Below are positions 27,399 through 62,849 of a DNA stretch of 64,000 nucleotides, piece by piece. The notes beneath the pieces were generated by a model. The model ran no database searches, was not told the DNA's origin, and worked only from the letters and a program-made list of their open reading frames with translations. This DNA comes from the human T2T-CHM13v2.0 reference genome, Homo sapiens: positions 32,480,001 to 32,544,000 of the forward strand of contig CP068257.2 of the NCBI GenBank assembly GCA_009914755.4, read 5' to 3'. How positions within the stretch are numbered: position 1 is the first letter of the stretch; each line of letters starts with the position of its first letter. Position numbers and translations under genes: made by a program.

Positions 27399-27557
<159 letters not shown>

Positions 27558-34749: not shown

Positions 34750-34880
34750 CGGAGCTTGACTCTCACTTTGTGACCTGGGGCCTATCAGTTCCCCTCTGGG
34801 CTTCAGTTTGCTCATGTGAAAGGTTTAGGCTGCGTTGTCTTTATGGTCCTTTCCAGCACTTCCAGTCTATGATTCTGTAA
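34750..34880 (+). mobile_element. MIR-family SINE fragment.
   Basis: TTGTGACCTGGGGCCTATCAGTTCCCCTCTGGGCTTCAGTTTGCTCATGTGAAAGG...GTCCTTTCCAGCACTTCCAGTCTATGATTCTG resembles the MIR core (..GTGACCTTGGGCAAGTCACTTAACCTCTCTGGGCCTCAGTTTCCTCATCTGTAAAATGGG..). Confidence 0.55.
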
Positions 34881-34924
34881 CCCATTTGGTCCCAAAGCTA
34901 TCTGTGGTTTCTTGTGTCCTGGAG

Positions 34925-35080
34925 TCAAAAGACCTGCTCTGTTTGAATCCTGGCAGTGACCACTTCATAGCTGAGTGACCTTGGGCTAATGACTTAACCT
35001 TTTTGAGTCTCTCTTCTTAACTACATTAAATTGTACGACTCAAAGGAGGCAACGTGTAGGAAACCACTTTGAAGACTCCT
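34925..35080 (+). mobile_element. MIR-family SINE fragment.
   Basis: CTGCTCTGTTTGAATCCTGGCAGTGACCACTTCATAGCTGAGTGACCTTGGGCTAATGACTTAACCTTTTTGAGTCTCTCTTCTTAACTACATTAAATTGTACGACTCAAAGGAGGCAACGTGTAGGAAACCACTTTGAAGACTCC matches the MIR consensus (..AATCCTGGCTCTGCCACTTACTAGCTGTGTGACCTTGGGCAAGTTACTTAACCTCTCTGAGCCTCAGTTTCCTCATCTGTAAAATGGGGATAATAATAGTACC..). Confidence 0.65.
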
Positions 35081-36778
35081 AGAGGAGTATTGTTGCTGGG
35101 GAGAGGGCTGCTGGACCCCAACCAACACTCGGCACCACTTTCTCTTCTTCCCTTTCCTCAATTGCCACACGGAGTGGAGCTGCCACTTCTCTTTCATCCT
35201 CTTCCTCAAAAGTTGTCTGAAAGCTGTGAAAGTACTTTGAAAATTAGAGTCTTATGAAAGACACTTCTTTTTTAAGTTCAGAAATATGAGGTTTCTGATA
35301 TATCTGGCTTCCTGTTTCCATCCTTGGGTATTCTTTTTACCCTTATCACATCATAGAATCCAAAAGCTTTGGGTGTATTTCTTAGGATTATTGAGTGAGT
35401 GCTGAGTATATGGAGAACACTTTCAGGAGGGCTGGATGAGAATTGATTAGTGGGCAGTTGAGTTGGTTGTTGGCATCTGTAAACACACTTTCTCTTAGAA
35501 CATGTTGAGACTCCTAGGCTAGCTCACAAGCTTCTAACCCTGTGAAGCAGTTGAATGGAAAATGGAAGAAAGCAGTGCTTGCTATGAACAATATCATAAG
35601 TAAGACCAAGACAGCCCCAGAGGTGCTATTTGAATAAGTTGAATACTTGACTGTAAGGAAGGGCAGGCTTGGACTTCCTGTGGACTCTCTGGAGGGAGGG
35701 GCATGGAGCACTCGGCAGTGGTGGTGTCTGGGTTACTTGATGGCCAGAGCATGTCATGCTCTTGCTAGAGCCTCCCTCCTGATGCATGGCATTTCAGCAG
35801 CACATTACTCTAAGCACAGGGCTTCAAATGGAATGAAGCAAGAGAGGAAGGCTTCTAGGGAAACTGGACAAGGCCAAGGAAGAGGCGGGAGCTCAGAGAA
35901 AAACTACCTGCTATAGACTTCAGTGTGTTGGGAATGTTGGCAGACAGGGTGAGGTCATAACTTGTCCGTGGTAGATTGGAAGGACATTTTGATGAATAGT
36001 GAGTGAAAGAGCAAATGGATAAATGGGAAGGAAAAAAGCATTGGGCCCCTGTTGGGTGAGAGTTCCCTGTACTGCCCACCAGGTGGCCAAATGGAATTAT
36101 TGTGGGGCAAGGGGAGTGACTGGGTAAAAGGCTGAGGGTTGCAAGGAGGTGGTGATTTGAGGTTGATCACACTATTTTAAGCTCTGTTCCAGAGCCTAAC
36201 TCAAAGTAAGTAATCAATAATTAAATCTTGAATAAATGAGTAATTCATAAGTTGGGTCATTGCAACCCTATTACCTGCTATATGGAGTAGAAATAAGCAA
36301 GTGGAATTAAACCTTGGAAAATGTGGCCAGGATTATGTGTAGTTTTCAGAGTGAGCCCAAGTGGCAGTCTTGTCAGTGAGCAAATGTGCAAGTCACTGCT
36401 TCAAGAAGTTTGTGGAATAGTGGATTCGTTTGTACCGTTTTTATTTCGTTGCTTAAGGAACCCTGGGAGTCTTCATCAGCTGTAATTGCTCCCTGTTGCC
36501 TCCATCCCACATCAGCTCATTGACCAAGTCCTGCCCATTCAGCTTCTAAACTGCCATTTTAAAATCATCAGCTTTATAGCGATGATTAGCATGTAATAAA
36601 CTGCATATATTTAAAGTGTATAATTTAATAAGGTTTGACATATGTATACACTCACAGAATCACCACGGTCAAGATAATAAACATATTTGTCACCCCTAAA
36701 ATTTCCTCCTCCTCCTTCGATTCCTTCCTCTACTTGTCCTTCATCCCAAGCAACCACTGATCTTTTTTCTTTCACTGT

Positions 36779-37078
36779 CGATTTTTTTCGACTTTATGAT
36801 GGTGCAGAAGTGATTGCAGATGCAGTAGAAGCCGTACTCAAATACCCAAACAACCAGTCTGTTTTTCACTCTCAGTAAAGTATTCCGTAAAATTACATGA
36901 GCTATTCAACACTTAATGTAAAATAGGGTTTGTGTTAGATGATTTTACACAACTGTAGGCTAAGCGTTCTGGGCATTTGGCTAAGTGATGTTAGGTTAGG
37001 TGGTGTATTAAATGCGTTTTCAACATAAAATATTTTCAATTTACGGGTTTATCGAAATGCGTATATTGTAAGTTGAGG
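36779..37078. mobile_element. DNA-transposon fossil (TcMar/Tigger-like terminal region) interrupting the ancient L1 3'UTR. Family is tentative.
   Basis: The sequence GTAGGCTAAGCGTTCTGGGCATTTGGCTAAGTGATGTTAGGTTAGGTGGTGTATTAAATGCGTTTTCAACATAAAATATTTTCAATTTACGGGTTTATCGAAATGCGTATATTGTAAGTTGAGGAACATC resembles the Tigger-family end motif (..TTAGGTTAGGTGTATTAAATGCATTTTCGACTTACGATATTTTCAACTTACGATGGGTTTATCGGGACGTAACCCCATCGTAAGTCGAGGAGCATCTGTA). CpGs are retained at TpG-equivalent positions. Confidence 0.45.
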
Positions 37079-37357
37079 AACATCTTTTTTTTTAGACTTA
37101 CATAGAATTGGATGGTATTGGACCCCTTTTACTCTAGTTTCTTTCACTCAGCATAATTATTTTGAGATCAATAGTGTGTATCAATAGTTCACTCCTTTTC
37201 ATTGCTGAGTAGTATGGCATTGTATGTAGTGAATATTTGTTTTTTTCCAGTTTGGGGTTGTTATAGGTACAGCTGCTGTGAACATTTGTGTACAAGTTGT
37301 TGTGTGGACACATGCTTTAATTTCTTTGGGGTAAATACCTAGCAGTGGAATGGCTAG

Positions 37358-38590
<1,233 letters not shown>

Positions 38591-44433: not shown

Positions 44434-44676
<243 letters not shown>

Positions 44677-45110
44677 GAAGATTCGCCAGATTTTAGCCTT
44701 ATATGTAATTCCTTCACATTTGGGCAGCATGGACGAGAAGGAAGAATTTGCAAGTTTGGCCTTTATATAAGCATGTGTTGCAGGTGCTGTTTGATTTTTC
44801 TAAGGTATTTTTAGCCCTTGATCCCCTTTGCTTGCGAGAGGTGGGGAACTGCTCACTGACAGCTTCTCTGTAACCTGCAGTACCAGTGGATCGTTCTTGA
44901 TTTTGTTTTCATTAGTGTCATTTCTTTGTCATTGAGGACTTTTCCCCTTACAACAGTAACACCATTTTTTGAAGAGCAAAACTTATAATACCTCCTGGGA
45001 TTGTGAGCTAGTCATTCAGCCTGTGTAACCATGTGGAAATAAAAATTGACGACCAATGTATTATATGGACAACTTTTGCTTTGAGTAATAAACTTGATTG
45101 TAGGAATGTG
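44677..45110 (+). other. MRPS6: MRPS6 3'UTR with two candidate poly(A) signals (AATAAA at 45038-45043 and 45087-45092). The exact cleavage site is not determinable from sequence alone.
   Basis: Non-repeat sequence contiguous with the stop codon. Two canonical AATAAA hexamers lie about 360-415 nt downstream of the stop, and the second is followed by a GT/T-rich tract (TTGATTGTAGGAATGTGGGAGGTGTTTTGT). Confidence 0.55.
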
Positions 45111-54614: not shown

Positions 54615-55953
54615 CTAATATTACGATGCCCTTTATTCTTGATGACAGTCACCATGAGAATCCCAGGCCCTCCAGAAGATCCCTCACCCTTGGCGACCCA
54701 ATCTCCACTCAGCTTCATACCTTCCTTCCTTTGACTCAACTTCCTGTCCAATCGTGAAACCTGTTCTCAGGGCCCCTGGAACTCACAGTCATCAGTGGTC
54801 TCTGATCACCTCCACCTCTTCTGTAAACATTTCCTGCTTGTTGCTCCAGTGGAAGCTGGGGCCCCTTGAAGCCTCTGCTTCCCCTGTAGCCCTCTCAGGA
54901 GTGGGTCTTTTCTCTACCACGAGGCCTAGAGGTAAAGCAGGCGTCTTCAGTCCTCTTTGTCCCATCCAGACCATTGCCCAATCTCATGCCATTGGGCTAA
55001 ACCATCGGGGGTTCAGTCATCTGTGGTTCCCCAGGCCACCTCCTGTGTTCCTTGAAGGCTTCAGCTCCCAGCCACTGTTACTCTCTCCAATCCAATCTCA
55101 CGTGACCCTAGGCGACTTAGGTGATCCTTTCCAAAAGCCTGGCCTCCTGGCTACCCAGTCTCCTCCCCACCACCCTGCCATCCATCTAACATTAGTCACC
55201 CACTCCCGGGTTACACCTCAGGCCCTGTCATTGCCAAAAACGACATTATTCAGAGTCCTAATTTCAAACATCCCGCTCTTCCCTCCTAGCTCACTCCCTC
55301 TTATACCCTGGCTCCAATCCCATTCCCTCAACCCTACAGGGCCCCACTTATCCTACTGGCTATCCATTGTCTCTCCTCATGCCCTCACTGCCCTCCTCAC
55401 CCTCCTTAAATTTCAAGTCTACTGCTGCAACCAACTCTCCAGGCCTCTCTTGATGATACTCAGACTCTACCACAGCCTGCACCTATGGGCTGGATGTGCC
55501 TGGGGAAAAGCATATCTCTGCTGACTGGTCTCATGACCACAACCACACAGGGGCCTGTGGTGCTCCTGGGGGCAGCATGGCTCCCCAGACCTCTACCTTC
55601 CCAGGAAACTAGGTCCTTCTTTCCCTTCTCAACCTTCCAGTACCTTTGGGCCCTCATTTTACCTCTGCTAATTGGCTTTGTTCCCTATTTTACTGAAAAA
55701 ATGGAGGAATCAGAAGAAATATTCCACAAATGTTTGAACCACTTCCGCTGTTCTGTGTCTGTGACTGCACCCTCCAGCCCCGCTCCGGGGAATGTTCCTG
55801 ATGCTGCGTCTCATTGAGGTGGGGGTCAGGGGAGGGGTGCTCCCATCTCCTGTGCCCAAGGTCCGGTCCCCTCGGACCTGCTTGGGGGCTTCGCTCCGCA
55901 AACTTCCCCTCACCCTGCTGCATCATCAAAATGGTCATGCAGTTTGATGGTCA

Positions 55954-56316
<363 letters not shown>

Positions 56317-57307
56317 TCATTTCCTCTCAGTCTCTTTAATGAAATAATGGTTTAACGAAGAGAAGCCAAGCTTTGTCCCGAAAGTGCCCCAACGTCCCCG
56401 GGACTCGCCTGCCTCGCGCTTTGCCCCGCAAAGGGACCTTCCTTGGGGTGCTGTGTGCCCCACAGTGGGTTGACCAAGCTGCCTATGGCAGGGCCCTAAT
56501 GTGAGCACCAGTGTGGTAACTGAAGGAGCAGTTTGGTGGCCTGGAATGGCGTGCTTAGGGCCAACCCAGTCCTTCCTTGCAGATGACCCTCACGCTGGCT
56601 GGTTTTCTTCCAAATTGGTGCCAATCTAATGATATTTCCATGCTCAAAATTATGTCAATGGGGAGAATGGGGAGACATTGGTCAAAGTACACAAAACTTT
56701 AGTTAGACAGAAGGAGGAAGCTCAAGAGACCTGTCATACAGCATGGTGACTAGAGTCAATATATTGTATATTGAAAATTGCAAAGAGAGTAGATGTTAAG
56801 TGTTCTCACCATAAAAAGTATGGGGAGTTATGTATGTGTTAAATAGCTTGATTTAGCCATTCCACGATATACACATGTATCAGAACATCAGGTTGTATAC
56901 CATACATATATACAATTTGTACTTGTCAATTGAGAAATTAAAATGTATATATACATCTCAACCCAAGCCTTCCTGTCTGAGCACTGTTGCGTGCTTGTGG
57001 CTGTGTTGTTCTCCCACTTCCTGAGCTGATTCTCTTCAGGTAAATGAATCAGTGTGGGTAGATCCATTTCATTTTGCCTCCTAGGCCTATCTGAACTGCT
57101 GCGAGGACTGGTTCTGACGTAGGAGCTGCTTTTGTGTTGAATTGGGTTTGTGGCAATGGTGACAGTCAGATGCTGTGGGGGGTGAGGCCACCCTGAGCTG
57201 GGGGAGGGTGTGGGGCACTAGTTGTCCACCCGTGTTCCATGTTACCATATGAAAAAAGTAGCTTACAGAGCATGTCAGTACAGCCTGTTCTCTTCTTAAA
57301 AGAAAAC

Positions 57308-58557: not shown

Positions 58558-58879
<322 letters not shown>

Positions 58880-60052: not shown

Positions 60053-60380
<328 letters not shown>

Positions 60381-60830
60381 TGACTGGGGTTCTGAAACAA
60401 GAGCCCTGGTGGATGCCAGGGTCGAACTGGAGAATCAGATTTCAGAGGGGAAGGAATTCAGGGAGAGACAAGTTCTGGTGTGGTTGCGGGAGAAGGTGGC
60501 TGAAGTGGGACGGGAAGCTCATTGGAGCAGAGGAGTTAAGGCAGAGAGTGGCTGGGAGTCAAAGGAGCCGCCTGTGGCGGTGCTGAGCTCCTCCCTGATG
60601 GTGACAGGCCCTGGGGTGGCAACGATAGCACCTGCTCTGGGCTGTCTGGAGGGAAGTGGAGTGCCTGGGGGAGACCCAGACCCCAGGCATGGCCACAGGG
60701 TGGAGGGGCCCTGGGAGGGAAAAGGGTGGCAGCGAAAGTCTCTTTTAAACGGAATGGGGGGAAGGAGTGCAGGATAGCGGGGGTTCATGTTGCAGATCTA
60801 TACAGGGAATGAGGGTCTAGGAGAGAGCTG

Positions 60831-61142
60831 TTTTTTTGTTTTGTTTTGTTTTTTGTTTTCTTGAGACAAGGACTCTGTTGCCCAGGCTGGAGTACAGTGG
60901 CAGGTTCACAGCTCACTGCAGCCTCAACCTCCTGGGTTCAAGTGATCCTCCCACCTCAGCCTCCCAAGCAGCTGGGACTACAGGCACCCGCCATCACGCC
61001 TGGCTGATTTTAAAATTTTTTTGTAGAAACGGGGTTTCACCACGTTGCCCAAGTTGGTCTTGAACTCCTGGGATCAAGCCATCCCGCCCACCTCGGCCTT
61101 CCAAAGTGCTGGGAGTACAGGCGTGAGGCACCGCGCCAGGCC
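60831..61142 (-). mobile_element. Full-length Alu in minus orientation.
   Basis: TTTTTTTGTTTTGTTTTGTTTTTTGTTTTCTTGAGACAAGGACTCTGTTGCCCAGGCTGGAGTACAGTGGCAGGTTCACAGCTCACTGCAGCC ... GGAGTACAGGCGTGAGGCACCGCGCCAGGCC. Confidence 0.93.
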
Positions 61143-61269
61143 AGGGCCAATATTTTGGACCAAGCCAAACGATTTCTAGGATGAGAGGCATGAATGGAGG
61201 AGGCCGTGAGAGACCCATCCATCCACCGTGAAAATTATCTGGTGACATCACCAGAGGGTCTGGGTGCCT

Positions 61270-62420
61270 GAGTGAGGTCGCAGCCTACGCCGCCCAAGCC
61301 CAAAGGCACAGGGAGGGCAACCTCAGACACCCGCTTGTAGGGCAGGGACATCTCCTGTTAGGCTTTCCTCGGGAAGAAAAAAGGGAGGAAGTGGCCTCCC
61401 CTGCCTCACCCGCCCGCCGCTGGTGAAAGCTCGGGGCAGCTGACCCACCTGCCCAAGCCATAGAATGCAACAGCGGTGCCTGCAGCTTCTGTGCCTGCGG
61501 GGCTTATCTTGCTGGTGGTCGACGATCTGCAGATGGTTTAACTCCACTCCTGTCTCCCGCCCTGGGGCTGCCAATCTGTCCAAAACTCAGCTGCCTGCTG
61601 GTCTGCACTGCGGAGGGCTTGGGGCCCCCACTCGAGGGGCCTGAGCTTCTCAGAGGCGTCTCCTGAATAAAACAAAACGCCGTGTGCTGCGCGCTTTGTG
61701 TGGGGGCTGCTTCACTCTGTGTCTCTCGATCACAGCTGCAAATTCCAGTTTTATCTGTTGTGTTTTTGAGCCTGTTTGCTTTTGATTACAGTTTGGTTTT
61801 GAAAGAGAAGAGGCACACACTATCCAGCTCCCTTTCTTCTCTCTCAGATGGAGCAATAGAGCTTTTTTATAGTGGAATCGGTTTTTTCCATTATTGCGCA
61901 TTTAATTTTATTATTCTACCGCCTTGCATTTTGAATTGCATAGGGGAAGAAACACATAAAAGAATACTCCCCCGCCCTGCCCCCCTAGTTGATTGTCGAA
62001 AAAAAAAAGATGTAGCATGATGATTTTTTGCCTGTGACCAACAGAATTACATTTTACGTTTGAAAGAACTCTCCGTGTGAACGCTGTCAACACAACAGAT
62101 ACGGATACAAGATTCAAAGTACGGTCAACCCCTCACATCACACGCGAAGTCCATTTCCTCCATTGCTGATGGTTCTCTCCAAGGCCGCAGTGTGCCGCAG
62201 AGCACGGTCGCTTGGGCTTCCGAAAAGAAGCTGAGTACAGTATTCATTTTGCGCATCTGCCTTTCTATTCAAACCAACTGAAAACATCGTTTAATTCCAG
62301 GTGCTCTGGTCTAGCTTTCGTTACAGCCACTGTGGCTCCCAGTTACTTCTTCATCACCCTGGTCTTTGTTTTCTTGCTCTGGAAAGAGGACAAGGAAAAC
62401 CTCGGTCTTTGGAATGAAGT
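61270..62420. promoter_or_regulatory. CpG-retaining, repeat-free block. It is a candidate germline-unmethylated promoter/first exon or terminal exon of an unannotated (probably noncoding) transcript. It contains an AATAAA (61667-61672) followed by a GT-rich element.
   Basis: About 17 CpGs lie in 61279-61700 (e.g. CCCGCCCGCCGCTGG, GGTCGACGATC, AACGCCGTGTGCTGCGCGC), and about 20 more are scattered through 61950-62420 in otherwise AT-moderate unique sequence (TACGGATACAAG, GTACGGTCAAC, CACGCGAAGTCC, GGCCGCAGTGTGCCGCAGAGCACGGTCGCTTGGGCTTCCG). The other unique parts of the window are strongly CpG-depleted. Confidence 0.4.

Positions 62421-62516: not shown

Positions 62517-62849
<333 letters not shown>

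What the first reader, a model, noticed from the sequence alone, without database searches (positions are those of the whole stretch)
61270..62420. CpG-retaining unique island ~16 kb downstream of MRPS6, a candidate unmethylated promoter or terminal exon of an unannotated transcript
Unique DNA elsewhere in the window is strongly CpG-depleted. This 1.15-kb repeat-free block, wedged between Alus at 60831-61142 and 62540-62849, retains ~35-40 CpGs. A GC-rich core lies at 61279-61700 (CCCGCCCGCCGCTGG, GGTCGACGATCTGCAG, AACGCCGTGTGCTGCGCGC). The AT-moderate stretch 61950-62420 also keeps many CpGs (TACGGATACAAG, GTACGGTCAAC, CACGCGAAGTCC, GGCCGCAGTGTGCCGCAGAGCACGGTCGCTTGGGCTTCCGAAAAG). Methylated CpGs decay quickly, so retention implies germline hypomethylation and/or purifying selection, the hallmark of a promoter or CpG-island shore. 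An AATAAA at 61667-61672 followed by GTGTGCTG..TTTGTGTGG could equally mark a transcript 3' end. There is no convincing ORF on either strand (short overlapping ORFs only), so a lncRNA or regulatory element is more likely than a protein gene. By position downstream of MRPS6 on 21q22.11 this could correspond to the start of a long intergenic noncoding RNA reported there. That identification is inference only.
Basis: partly seen in the sequence, partly recalled or inferred. Interest (0 to 1): 0.55.

Follow-up and report, generated by a model that had tools for sequence, protein, structure and literature searches.

The report
Weak orphan CpG island downstream of MRPS6
A ~1.4-kb stretch 16 kb beyond the human MRPS6 gene has kept its CpG dinucleotides for tens of millions of years, most likely because it stays unmethylated in the germline as small promoter-like CpG islands do; this is an ordinary kind of element, and no transcript from it could be shown here.

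Summary
Window 61270-62420 has 43 CpGs, GC 0.50 and CpG o/e 0.59. Alu-free background is 0.22, and the best GC-matched window elsewhere is 0.35. It is the strongest CpG cluster in the 64 kb.

It is a weak island. No 500-bp window meets the Takai-Jones or high-CpG-promoter thresholds, and only 200-300-bp patches pass the Gardiner-Garden criteria.

The new evidence is an internal clock. The old Alu abutting the block keeps 8 of 12 consensus CpGs in the half next to the block and 0 of 10 in the far half, although the near half is the more diverged (15.6% vs 8.9%). Equally diverged Alu halves elsewhere keep 5 of 44. This argues for long-term regional protection from methylation-driven decay, starting near 60,990. 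It argues against a young insertion and against selection on the unique sequence alone.

Four of the window's eight non-Alu GC boxes lie in the block.

I found no protein, Rfam family, RNA structure, tandem repeat or retroelement hallmark.

Published LINC00310 primers and guide RNAs do not map to the window, so that identification is not supported.

Promoter versus distal regulatory element remains untested. The finding is ordinary and of low novelty.

The parts
60990..62330 (.). Domain of protected CpGs, inferred to be hypomethylated in the germline. It covers the block plus the near half of the left Alu.
   Evidence: The CpG map shows a continuous dense run. The left boundary comes from the per-site Alu clock. 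The right boundary is where unique-sequence CpG density falls. It may extend into the right Alu, but that is not significant.
61200..61700 (.). GC-rich lobe: GC about 0.6, 23 CpGs, o/e 0.4-0.58. It carries three of the GC boxes.
61700..61900 (.). T-rich, CpG-poor spacer between the two lobes.
61855..62354 (.). AT-moderate lobe with essentially undepleted CpG (o/e 0.88, GC 0.43, 20 CpGs). This is the highest 500-bp o/e in the window.
61290..61295 (-). GC box (GGGCGG on the - strand).
61410..61415 (-). GC box (GGGCGG on the - strand).
61557..61562 (-). GC box (GGGCGG on the - strand).
61972..61977 (-). GC box (GGGCGG on the - strand).
60831..61142 (-). Old Alu, about 13% non-CpG divergence. The half next to the block keeps 8 of 12 consensus CpGs. 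The far half keeps 0 of 10.
62540..62849 (-). AluS-like copy (4.7% divergence) with target-site duplication ACCATTTTCT. It keeps 13 of 24 CpGs, the highest fraction in the window but not significantly above its peers.
61666..61671 (+). AATAAA followed by a GT-rich tract. It is a motif match only, with no evidence that it is used.
61404..61451 (-). Two strong donor-like sites on the - strand: CAG|GTGGGT (last exon base 61449, 10.0 bits) and CGG|GTGAGG (61410, 9.0 bits). The + strand of the block has none at or above 6.5 bits.
   Evidence: PWM typed in from memory; suggestive only

Best explanation
The block is the core of a ~1.4-kb domain (about 60,990-62,330, possibly reaching 62,850) that has been kept largely free of cytosine methylation in the primate germline for tens of millions of years. 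Its CpGs have therefore escaped the usual CpG-to-TpG/CpA decay.

In kind it is a weak, intermediate-CpG 'orphan' CpG island. It lies outside any annotated protein-coding gene that I could detect.

The likely mechanism is occupancy by Sp1/KLF-type factors at a cluster of GC boxes, and probably other factors on the AT-moderate lobe, which excludes de novo methylation. This is the established behaviour of CpG islands. Such elements usually act as promoters of non-coding transcripts or as constitutive regulatory elements.

If it is a promoter, the weak strand cues favour the - strand: the GC boxes read GGGCGG on that strand, and strong donor-like sites lie at 61449 and 61410.

What is shown: the CpG excess, its boundary, and the protection of CpGs in a neighbouring neutral Alu.

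What is inferred: hypomethylation, factor binding and transcription.
For: (1) CpG o/e is 0.59 against a non-Alu background of 0.22. It is the top-ranked window of 859, and the GC-matched maximum elsewhere is 0.35. The core 500 bp reaches o/e 0.88.

(2) Neutral-marker test. The abutting old Alu keeps 8 of 12 consensus CpGs at coordinates >=60990 and 0 of 10 beyond that (Fisher p=0.0017). The protected half is the more diverged at non-CpG sites (15.6% vs 8.9%), so it is not a younger or gene-converted piece. Comparably diverged halves of four other Alus keep 5 of 44.

(3) Four of the eight non-Alu GGGCGG boxes in 59 kb fall in this 1.15 kb, all in one orientation.

(4) Nothing points to another identity.
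- No Pfam hit in the six frames.
- No hit in the 5.8-billion-protein database.
- No Rfam family.
- No excess RNA structure: z = +1.3 and +1.4.
- No repeats.

(5) By contrast, a genuine retrocopy in the same window, the RPS5-like pseudogene near 37.7-38.0 kb, sits in a 1-kb window (37501-38500, which also takes in most of an Alu) with GC 0.53 and o/e only 0.24. GC-rich inserted DNA here does lose its CpGs.
Against: The block fails the stricter island definitions. Overall o/e is just under 0.6. No 500-bp window has both GC>=0.55 and o/e>=0.65.

TpG+CpA o/e is 1.15-1.18, close to the background of 1.21. Some decay has therefore occurred, and protection may be partial or intermittent.

The right-hand Alu shows no gradient, and its retention (54%) is within the range of its peers.

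There is no canonical core-promoter or common CpG-island transcription-factor consensus apart from the GC boxes.

I obtained no methylation, transcription or conservation data. Two metagenome scans for orthologous or contaminant copies found nothing.

The Alu consensus and the donor PWM were typed in from memory.
Confidence: 0.6

Rival explanations
1. It is a distal regulatory element (enhancer or insulator-type low-methylated region) bound by factors in germ cells, with no stable transcript starting there.
For: The CpG-richest lobe has only 43% GC, which is atypical for promoter islands. There is partial decay (TpG+CpA o/e 1.15-1.18). There are two TTGCGCAT (C/EBP/PAR-bZIP-like) sites and several CAGCTG/CAGATG E-boxes. 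No core-promoter consensus was found, and the + strand has no donor-like site.
Against: Cell-type-specific low-methylated regions rarely keep CpG o/e near 0.9 over evolutionary time (established knowledge, not tested here). The GC-box cluster and a protected width of 1.4 kb are more island-like. No CTCF consensus was found.
Confidence: 0.22
2. The CpGs are kept by purifying selection on a functional sequence (an exon of a non-coding or small-protein gene, or a conserved element) that is methylated like its surroundings.
For: CpG o/e is near 1 at moderate GC in 61900-62300. On the - strand, an acceptor-like site at 62378 and AATAAA/ATTAAA at 61912-61901 could frame a ~470-nt terminal exon. The lncRNA AP000318.2 runs through this general interval.
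Against: Selection on the unique sequence cannot explain why the neighbouring Alu half keeps 8 of 12 CpGs while being 15.6% diverged elsewhere. No protein homologue was found in any frame. The 87-aa ORF has no ATG. No RNA family or excess structure was found.
Confidence: 0.07
3. The block is a recently inserted sequence (retrocopy, solo LTR or other young element) whose CpGs have not yet had time to decay.
For: AATAAA with a GT-rich tract at 61666-61700 resembles an LTR R/U5 region or an mRNA 3' end. An A10 run lies at 61999-62008. One TG...CA candidate with a 6-bp duplication was found (61207/62181).
Against: An old Alu (about 13% diverged) is inserted in or abuts the domain and shares its CpG protection, so the protection is regional and long-lived. 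The single duplication candidate is what chance predicts (my estimate is about 1.5 expected), and it cuts through the CpG core. No gag, pol, ORF1, ORF2 or host-gene protein similarity was found. No primer-binding-site-like sequence follows the putative U5. I could not run RepeatMasker or Dfam, so ancient repeat origin is not excluded.
Confidence: 0.05
4. It is a by-product of GC-biased gene conversion at a recombination hotspot, or a chance fluctuation.
For: One PRDM9-type 13-mer (CCNCCNTNNCCNC) lies at 61972. The surrounding 60.3-61.7 kb is GC-rich.
Against: The GC-rich DNA just to the left (60353-60830) is CpG-depleted. The highest o/e is in the 43%-GC lobe, which is not what gene conversion predicts. 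The block outranks all 853 Alu-free windows tested elsewhere in the window. The whole window has only three matches to the 13-mer per strand, and a single match is uninformative.
Confidence: 0.04

Closest known systems
Orphan (intergenic) CpG islands, weak/intermediate-CpG class (Illingworth et al. 2010; intermediate-CpG promoters of Weber et al. 2007; cited from my own knowledge)
   Same: A local CpG excess 1-2 kb wide, away from known protein-coding starts. It has GC boxes and sharp boundaries, and neighbouring repeat CpGs are protected. 500-bp windows fall between the low-CpG (o/e below 0.48) and high-CpG (o/e above 0.75 with GC above 0.55) classes.
   Different: It is weaker than textbook islands: GC 0.50 and o/e 0.59 overall. 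The CpG-richest part is only 43% GC. Neither an unmethylated state nor transcription initiation has been shown here.
CpG-island-associated Alus that escape germline methylation (Alu CpG decay used as a methylation clock; cited from my own knowledge)
   Same: The Alu half adjoining the block keeps two thirds of its CpGs despite about 15% divergence at other sites.
   Different: Only one Alu half shows the effect significantly. The other flanking Alu is not distinguishable from its peers.
LINC00310 / AP000318.2 lncRNA genes of the MRPS6-KCNE2 interval
   Same: Same chromosomal interval downstream of MRPS6. AP000318.2 spans at least to rs28451064.
   Different: Published LINC00310 primers, guide RNAs and cloning primers are absent from the window. 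I could not obtain the position or strand of the AP000318.2 start.

Membership tests
CpG island (Gardiner-Garden & Frommer 1987) | At least 200 bp with GC >= 0.50 and CpG o/e >= 0.60 | tested here: inconclusive
   The whole block has GC 0.504 and o/e 0.59, just short. 200-bp windows within 61496-61810 and 62055-62364 pass, but comparable 200-bp patches also pass inside ordinary Alus elsewhere.
CpG island (Takai & Jones 2002) | At least 500 bp with GC >= 0.55 and o/e >= 0.65 | tested here: not met
   No such window exists anywhere in the 64 kb.
High-CpG promoter class (Weber et al. 2007) | A 500-bp window with o/e > 0.75 and GC > 0.55 | tested here: not met
   None found. The block has many 500-bp windows with o/e >= 0.48, so it falls in the intermediate class.
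Germline-unmethylated region | CpGs of neutral neighbouring sequence are protected from decay | tested here: met
   The left Alu keeps 8 of 12 CpGs in the near half and 0 of 10 in the far half (p=0.0017). Controls keep 5 of 44. The right Alu is not significant.
Germline-unmethylated region | Low methylation in sperm, oocyte or embryo bisulfite data | not testable with these tools
Promoter / transcription start site | Capped 5' ends (CAGE/PRO-cap), H3K4me3, or a cDNA starting here | not testable with these tools
   Only sequence cues are available: four GC boxes, donor-like sites on the - strand, and no TATA, NRF1, ETS or CRE consensus.
LINC00310 (RefSeq gene as used in PMC6111859) | Published RT-PCR, full-length cloning, guide-RNA and flanking primers map to the locus | tested here: not met
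   0 of 12 oligonucleotides match the window with up to 2 mismatches.
Polyadenylation site / terminal exon | AATAAA 10-30 nt before a cleavage site with a GU-rich downstream element, plus evidence of transcript ends | tested here: inconclusive
   The motif arrangement is present at 61666-61705. Transcript ends are not testable. A single hexamer is weak evidence on its own.
Processed pseudogene / retroelement | Similarity to a host or retroelement protein, or flanking target-site duplication with poly(A) or LTR termini | tested here: not met
   No Pfam hit or protein-database hit in the six frames. The duplication search is at chance level. Origin from a non-coding repeat consensus could not be tested, because no Dfam or RepeatMasker was available.
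Known structured RNA (Rfam 15) | A covariance-model match at or near the gathering score | tested here: not met
   The only match is a chance-level mir-1238 hit (E=0.46) inside the block. Nothing in the window reaches gathering score.

The most novel reading that the evidence does not exclude
The block is a still-unannotated, evolutionarily long-lived promoter active in the germline or early embryo. It may fire on the - strand, convergent with MRPS6, and sits in the 21q22.11 MRPS6-KCNE2 interval that carries coronary-disease and migraine GWAS signals. Its transcript or its promoter activity might contribute to regulation of that locus.
Probability: 0.12. Interest if true: 0.4.

Novelty: new member of a known kind. 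Interest (0 to 1): 0.2.

Why it matters
If the inference holds, this is one more small orphan CpG island, a candidate promoter or regulatory element in a disease-associated interval (MRPS6-SLC5A3-KCNE2). That would be of modest local interest to people dissecting that locus. It would not be conceptually new.

The more reusable point is methodological. CpG retention in an adjacent old Alu, compared half against half and against other Alus in the same window, separates regional germline hypomethylation from young insertion and from selection. It needs nothing but the sequence.

Tried and rejected
Protein-coding, retrocopy or ERV reading:
- Six-frame Pfam scan found nothing.
- A six-frame concatenated search of the 5.8-billion-protein database gave no hit at E<=1e-3.
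- Exact look-ups of the 112-aa and 87-aa ORFs are not on record.
- The 87-aa ORF has a hydrophobic stretch but no ATG and no homologue, so I rejected it.

Structured RNA: Rfam found nothing relevant at gathering or at E<=1. Folding of the core on both strands gave z = +1.3 and +1.4.

Repeat origin:
- Alu and MIR consensus blastn (consensus sequences from memory), self-blast against the window, TRF, and direct/inverted repeat searches found nothing in the block.
- The search for an LTR-style TG...CA pair with a flanking target-site duplication was at chance level.
- Visual comparison with mitochondrial, L1 5'UTR, LTR5 and LTR7 sequences that I remember found no resemblance. This is not a tool result.

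Orthologues and conservation: two degenerate-pattern scans of metagenome contigs gave 0 hits. No vertebrate genome collection was available, so conservation could not be tested.

Annotation from the literature:
- LINC00310 primers do not map.
- Papers naming AP000318.2, AP000320.6 and AP000320.7 give no transcript coordinates.

Motifs:
- CTCF, NRF1, ETS, CRE and TATA consensus sites are absent.
- There is a single match to the PRDM9 13-mer.
- GC skew shows no promoter-like asymmetry.

Full report
**What the window is.** A tblastn of the human MRPS6 protein (typed in from memory) hits the + strand at 27411-27557 and, at 100% identity, at 44485-44673. The first AATAAA with a GT-rich tail after the stop codon is at 45087.

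**Checking the observation.** All quoted strings are present.
- The flanking Alus at 60831-61142 and 62540-62849, both on the - strand, are confirmed by blastn with an Alu consensus and by SRP/Alu-type Rfam hits. The right Alu carries a clean target-site duplication, ACCATTTTCT.
- The block holds 43 CpGs, GC 0.504, o/e 0.59.
- With 17 Alu intervals masked, the remaining 59.2 kb has o/e 0.22.
- Of 859 Alu-free 1151-bp windows, the top six all overlap this block. The best elsewhere is 0.44. The best of 169 GC-matched windows is 0.35.
- The highest 500-bp o/e in the window is 61855-62354: 0.88 at only 43% GC.
- The CpG map shows one continuous dense run from about 60,990 to 62,330. It has a GC-rich lobe (61,200-61,700) and an AT-moderate lobe (61,900-62,300), separated by a T-rich dip.

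**How strong an island is it?** It is weak. No 500-bp window meets Takai-Jones (GC>=0.55, o/e>=0.65) or the high-CpG-promoter thresholds. The whole block just misses the Gardiner-Garden o/e of 0.6. Only 200-300-bp patches pass, as do patches inside ordinary Alus. By the Weber scheme it is intermediate-CpG. TpG+CpA o/e is 1.15-1.18 against a background of 1.21, so some decay has taken place.

**What it is not.**
- Not protein-coding or a retrocopy. No Pfam domain was found in any of the six frames. No match at E<=1e-3 was found in a 5.8-billion-protein database for a six-frame concatenate. The two longest ORFs are not on record. The 87-aa ORF starts at TTG and has no ATG.
- Not a known or structured RNA. 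Rfam gave no match beyond a chance-level miRNA hit. Folding of the core on either strand gave z = +1.3 and +1.4.
- Not a detectable repeat. No tandem, internal or intra-window repeats and no MIR were found. A search for LTR-style TG...CA ends with flanking duplications found one 6-bp candidate, where I estimate about 1.5 by chance, and it cuts through the CpG core.

I could not run RepeatMasker or Dfam, so derivation from an old non-coding repeat remains open.

**The decisive internal test.** CpG decay in Alus is a local clock for germline methylation. I aligned 16 Alus in the window to a consensus.
- Copies with 12-17% non-CpG divergence keep 5-17% of their consensus CpGs. The equally old left-flank Alu keeps 35% (Fisher p=0.024).
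- Site by site, all eight retained CpGs in that Alu lie at coordinates >=60990, in the half that abuts the block (8 of 12). The far half keeps 0 of 10 (Fisher p=0.0017).
- The protected half is more diverged at non-CpG sites (15.6%) than the unprotected half (8.9%). It is therefore not a younger or gene-converted segment.
- Comparably diverged halves of four other Alus keep 5 of 44.
- The right-flank Alu keeps 13 of 24, the highest fraction in the window. It shows no gradient and is within the spread of similarly young copies (p=0.07).

An old, presumably neutral sequence that shares the block's CpG protection, with a sharp edge near 60,990, is what regional long-term germline hypomethylation predicts. 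A young insertion does not predict it, and neither does purifying selection on the unique sequence alone. As a contrast, the RPS5-like processed pseudogene on the - strand at 37733-38044 (Pfam Ribosomal_S7) sits in a 1-kb window (37501-38500, which also takes in most of an Alu) with GC 0.53 and o/e of only 0.24.

**Mechanistic cues.**
- Outside Alus the window has eight GGGCGG/CCGCCC boxes. Four lie in the block (61290, 61410, 61557, 61972), and all read GGGCGG on the - strand. From established knowledge, Sp1-type sites are known to protect islands from de novo methylation.
- No CTCF, NRF1, ETS, CRE, E-box CACGTG or TATA consensus was found in the block. Two TTGCGCAT sites are present.
- GC skew is flat.
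- A simple donor PWM, typed in from memory, finds no site at or above 6.5 bits on the + strand of the block. It finds five on the - strand, the best at 61449 (10.0 bits) and 61410 (9.0 bits). The window-wide density is about 1.8-2.0 per kb per strand. This mildly favours the - strand if the element is a promoter, but it is not significant.
- The AATAAA with a GT-rich tract on the + strand is a plausible poly(A) signal by form only. A 3'-end reading would not explain hypomethylation.

**Comparison with what is reported at the locus.**
- One paper on LINC00310 gives RT-PCR primers, two guide RNAs at the gene's 5' and 3' extremities, homology-arm primers, flanking primers and full-length cloning primers (PMC6111859 Table S1). 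None of the 12 matches the window with up to 2 mismatches on either strand. The RefSeq LINC00310 unit therefore lies outside this window, and the block is not its start.
- GWAS papers annotate rs28451064 (hg19 chr21:35,593,827) as intronic in AP000318.2 and AP000320.7 (PMC7858636; PMC9349177). A long lncRNA named after the clone nearest MRPS6 therefore exists. No paper I could reach gives its start or strand. Whether this block is its promoter is untested.

**Conclusion.** The best-supported reading (about 0.6) is a small, weak orphan CpG island. It is a domain of about 1.4 kb that has been kept hypomethylated in the germline over a long period, probably through GC-box and other factor binding, and that acts as a promoter-like or constitutive regulatory element.
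- Within that reading I put a real transcription start at roughly 0.4. A non-initiating regulatory element is the main rival (0.22).
- Selection on a methylated functional sequence (0.07), a young insertion (0.05), and biased gene conversion or chance (0.04) are disfavoured for the reasons above.

This is an ordinary kind of element in a heavily annotated genome. Public methylome, CAGE and conservation tracks would settle it in minutes. Interest is low.

Noticed in passing
window 37733-38044 (- strand), probably extending to about 37400-38100: Processed pseudogene of ribosomal protein S5 inside MRPS6 intron 2. A 103-aa ORF matches Pfam Ribosomal_S7/S5e (E=8e-8), and a T-run at about 37420-37435 is consistent with its poly(A) tail. 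The surrounding 1-kb window (37501-38500, which also takes in most of an Alu) has CpG o/e of only 0.24 at GC 0.53.
   Followed up: partly
window 55700-56600: A second, weaker CpG cluster. There are 8 CpGs in 55700-55899 and 10 in 56300-56599, on either side of an Alu (55996-56278) that keeps 10 of 23 consensus CpGs. 1-kb o/e is 0.39-0.43. It may be another partly protected region.
   Followed up: no
window 58562-58850: This Alu keeps 8 of 12 consensus CpGs in its left half despite 9.5% non-CpG divergence, although its unique flanks are CpG-poor. This is unexplained. It shows that the Alu clock has scatter.
   Followed up: no
window 36366-37464: An AT-rich stretch (GC about 0.37) with relatively high CpG o/e (0.42-0.44 in 1.15-kb windows), just 3' of the RPS5 pseudogene. 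Its origin was not examined.
   Followed up: no
window 27411-27557 and 44485-44676; 45087: MRPS6 coding exons 2 and 3 on the + strand, and the probable MRPS6 poly(A) signal (AATAAA at 45087 followed by a GT-rich tract). These fix the orientation of the locus and the distance to the block.
   Followed up: yes
window 34766-35011: MIR-like fragments on the - strand (74-75% identity to a MIR consensus typed in from memory). An ordinary ancient repeat.
   Followed up: no
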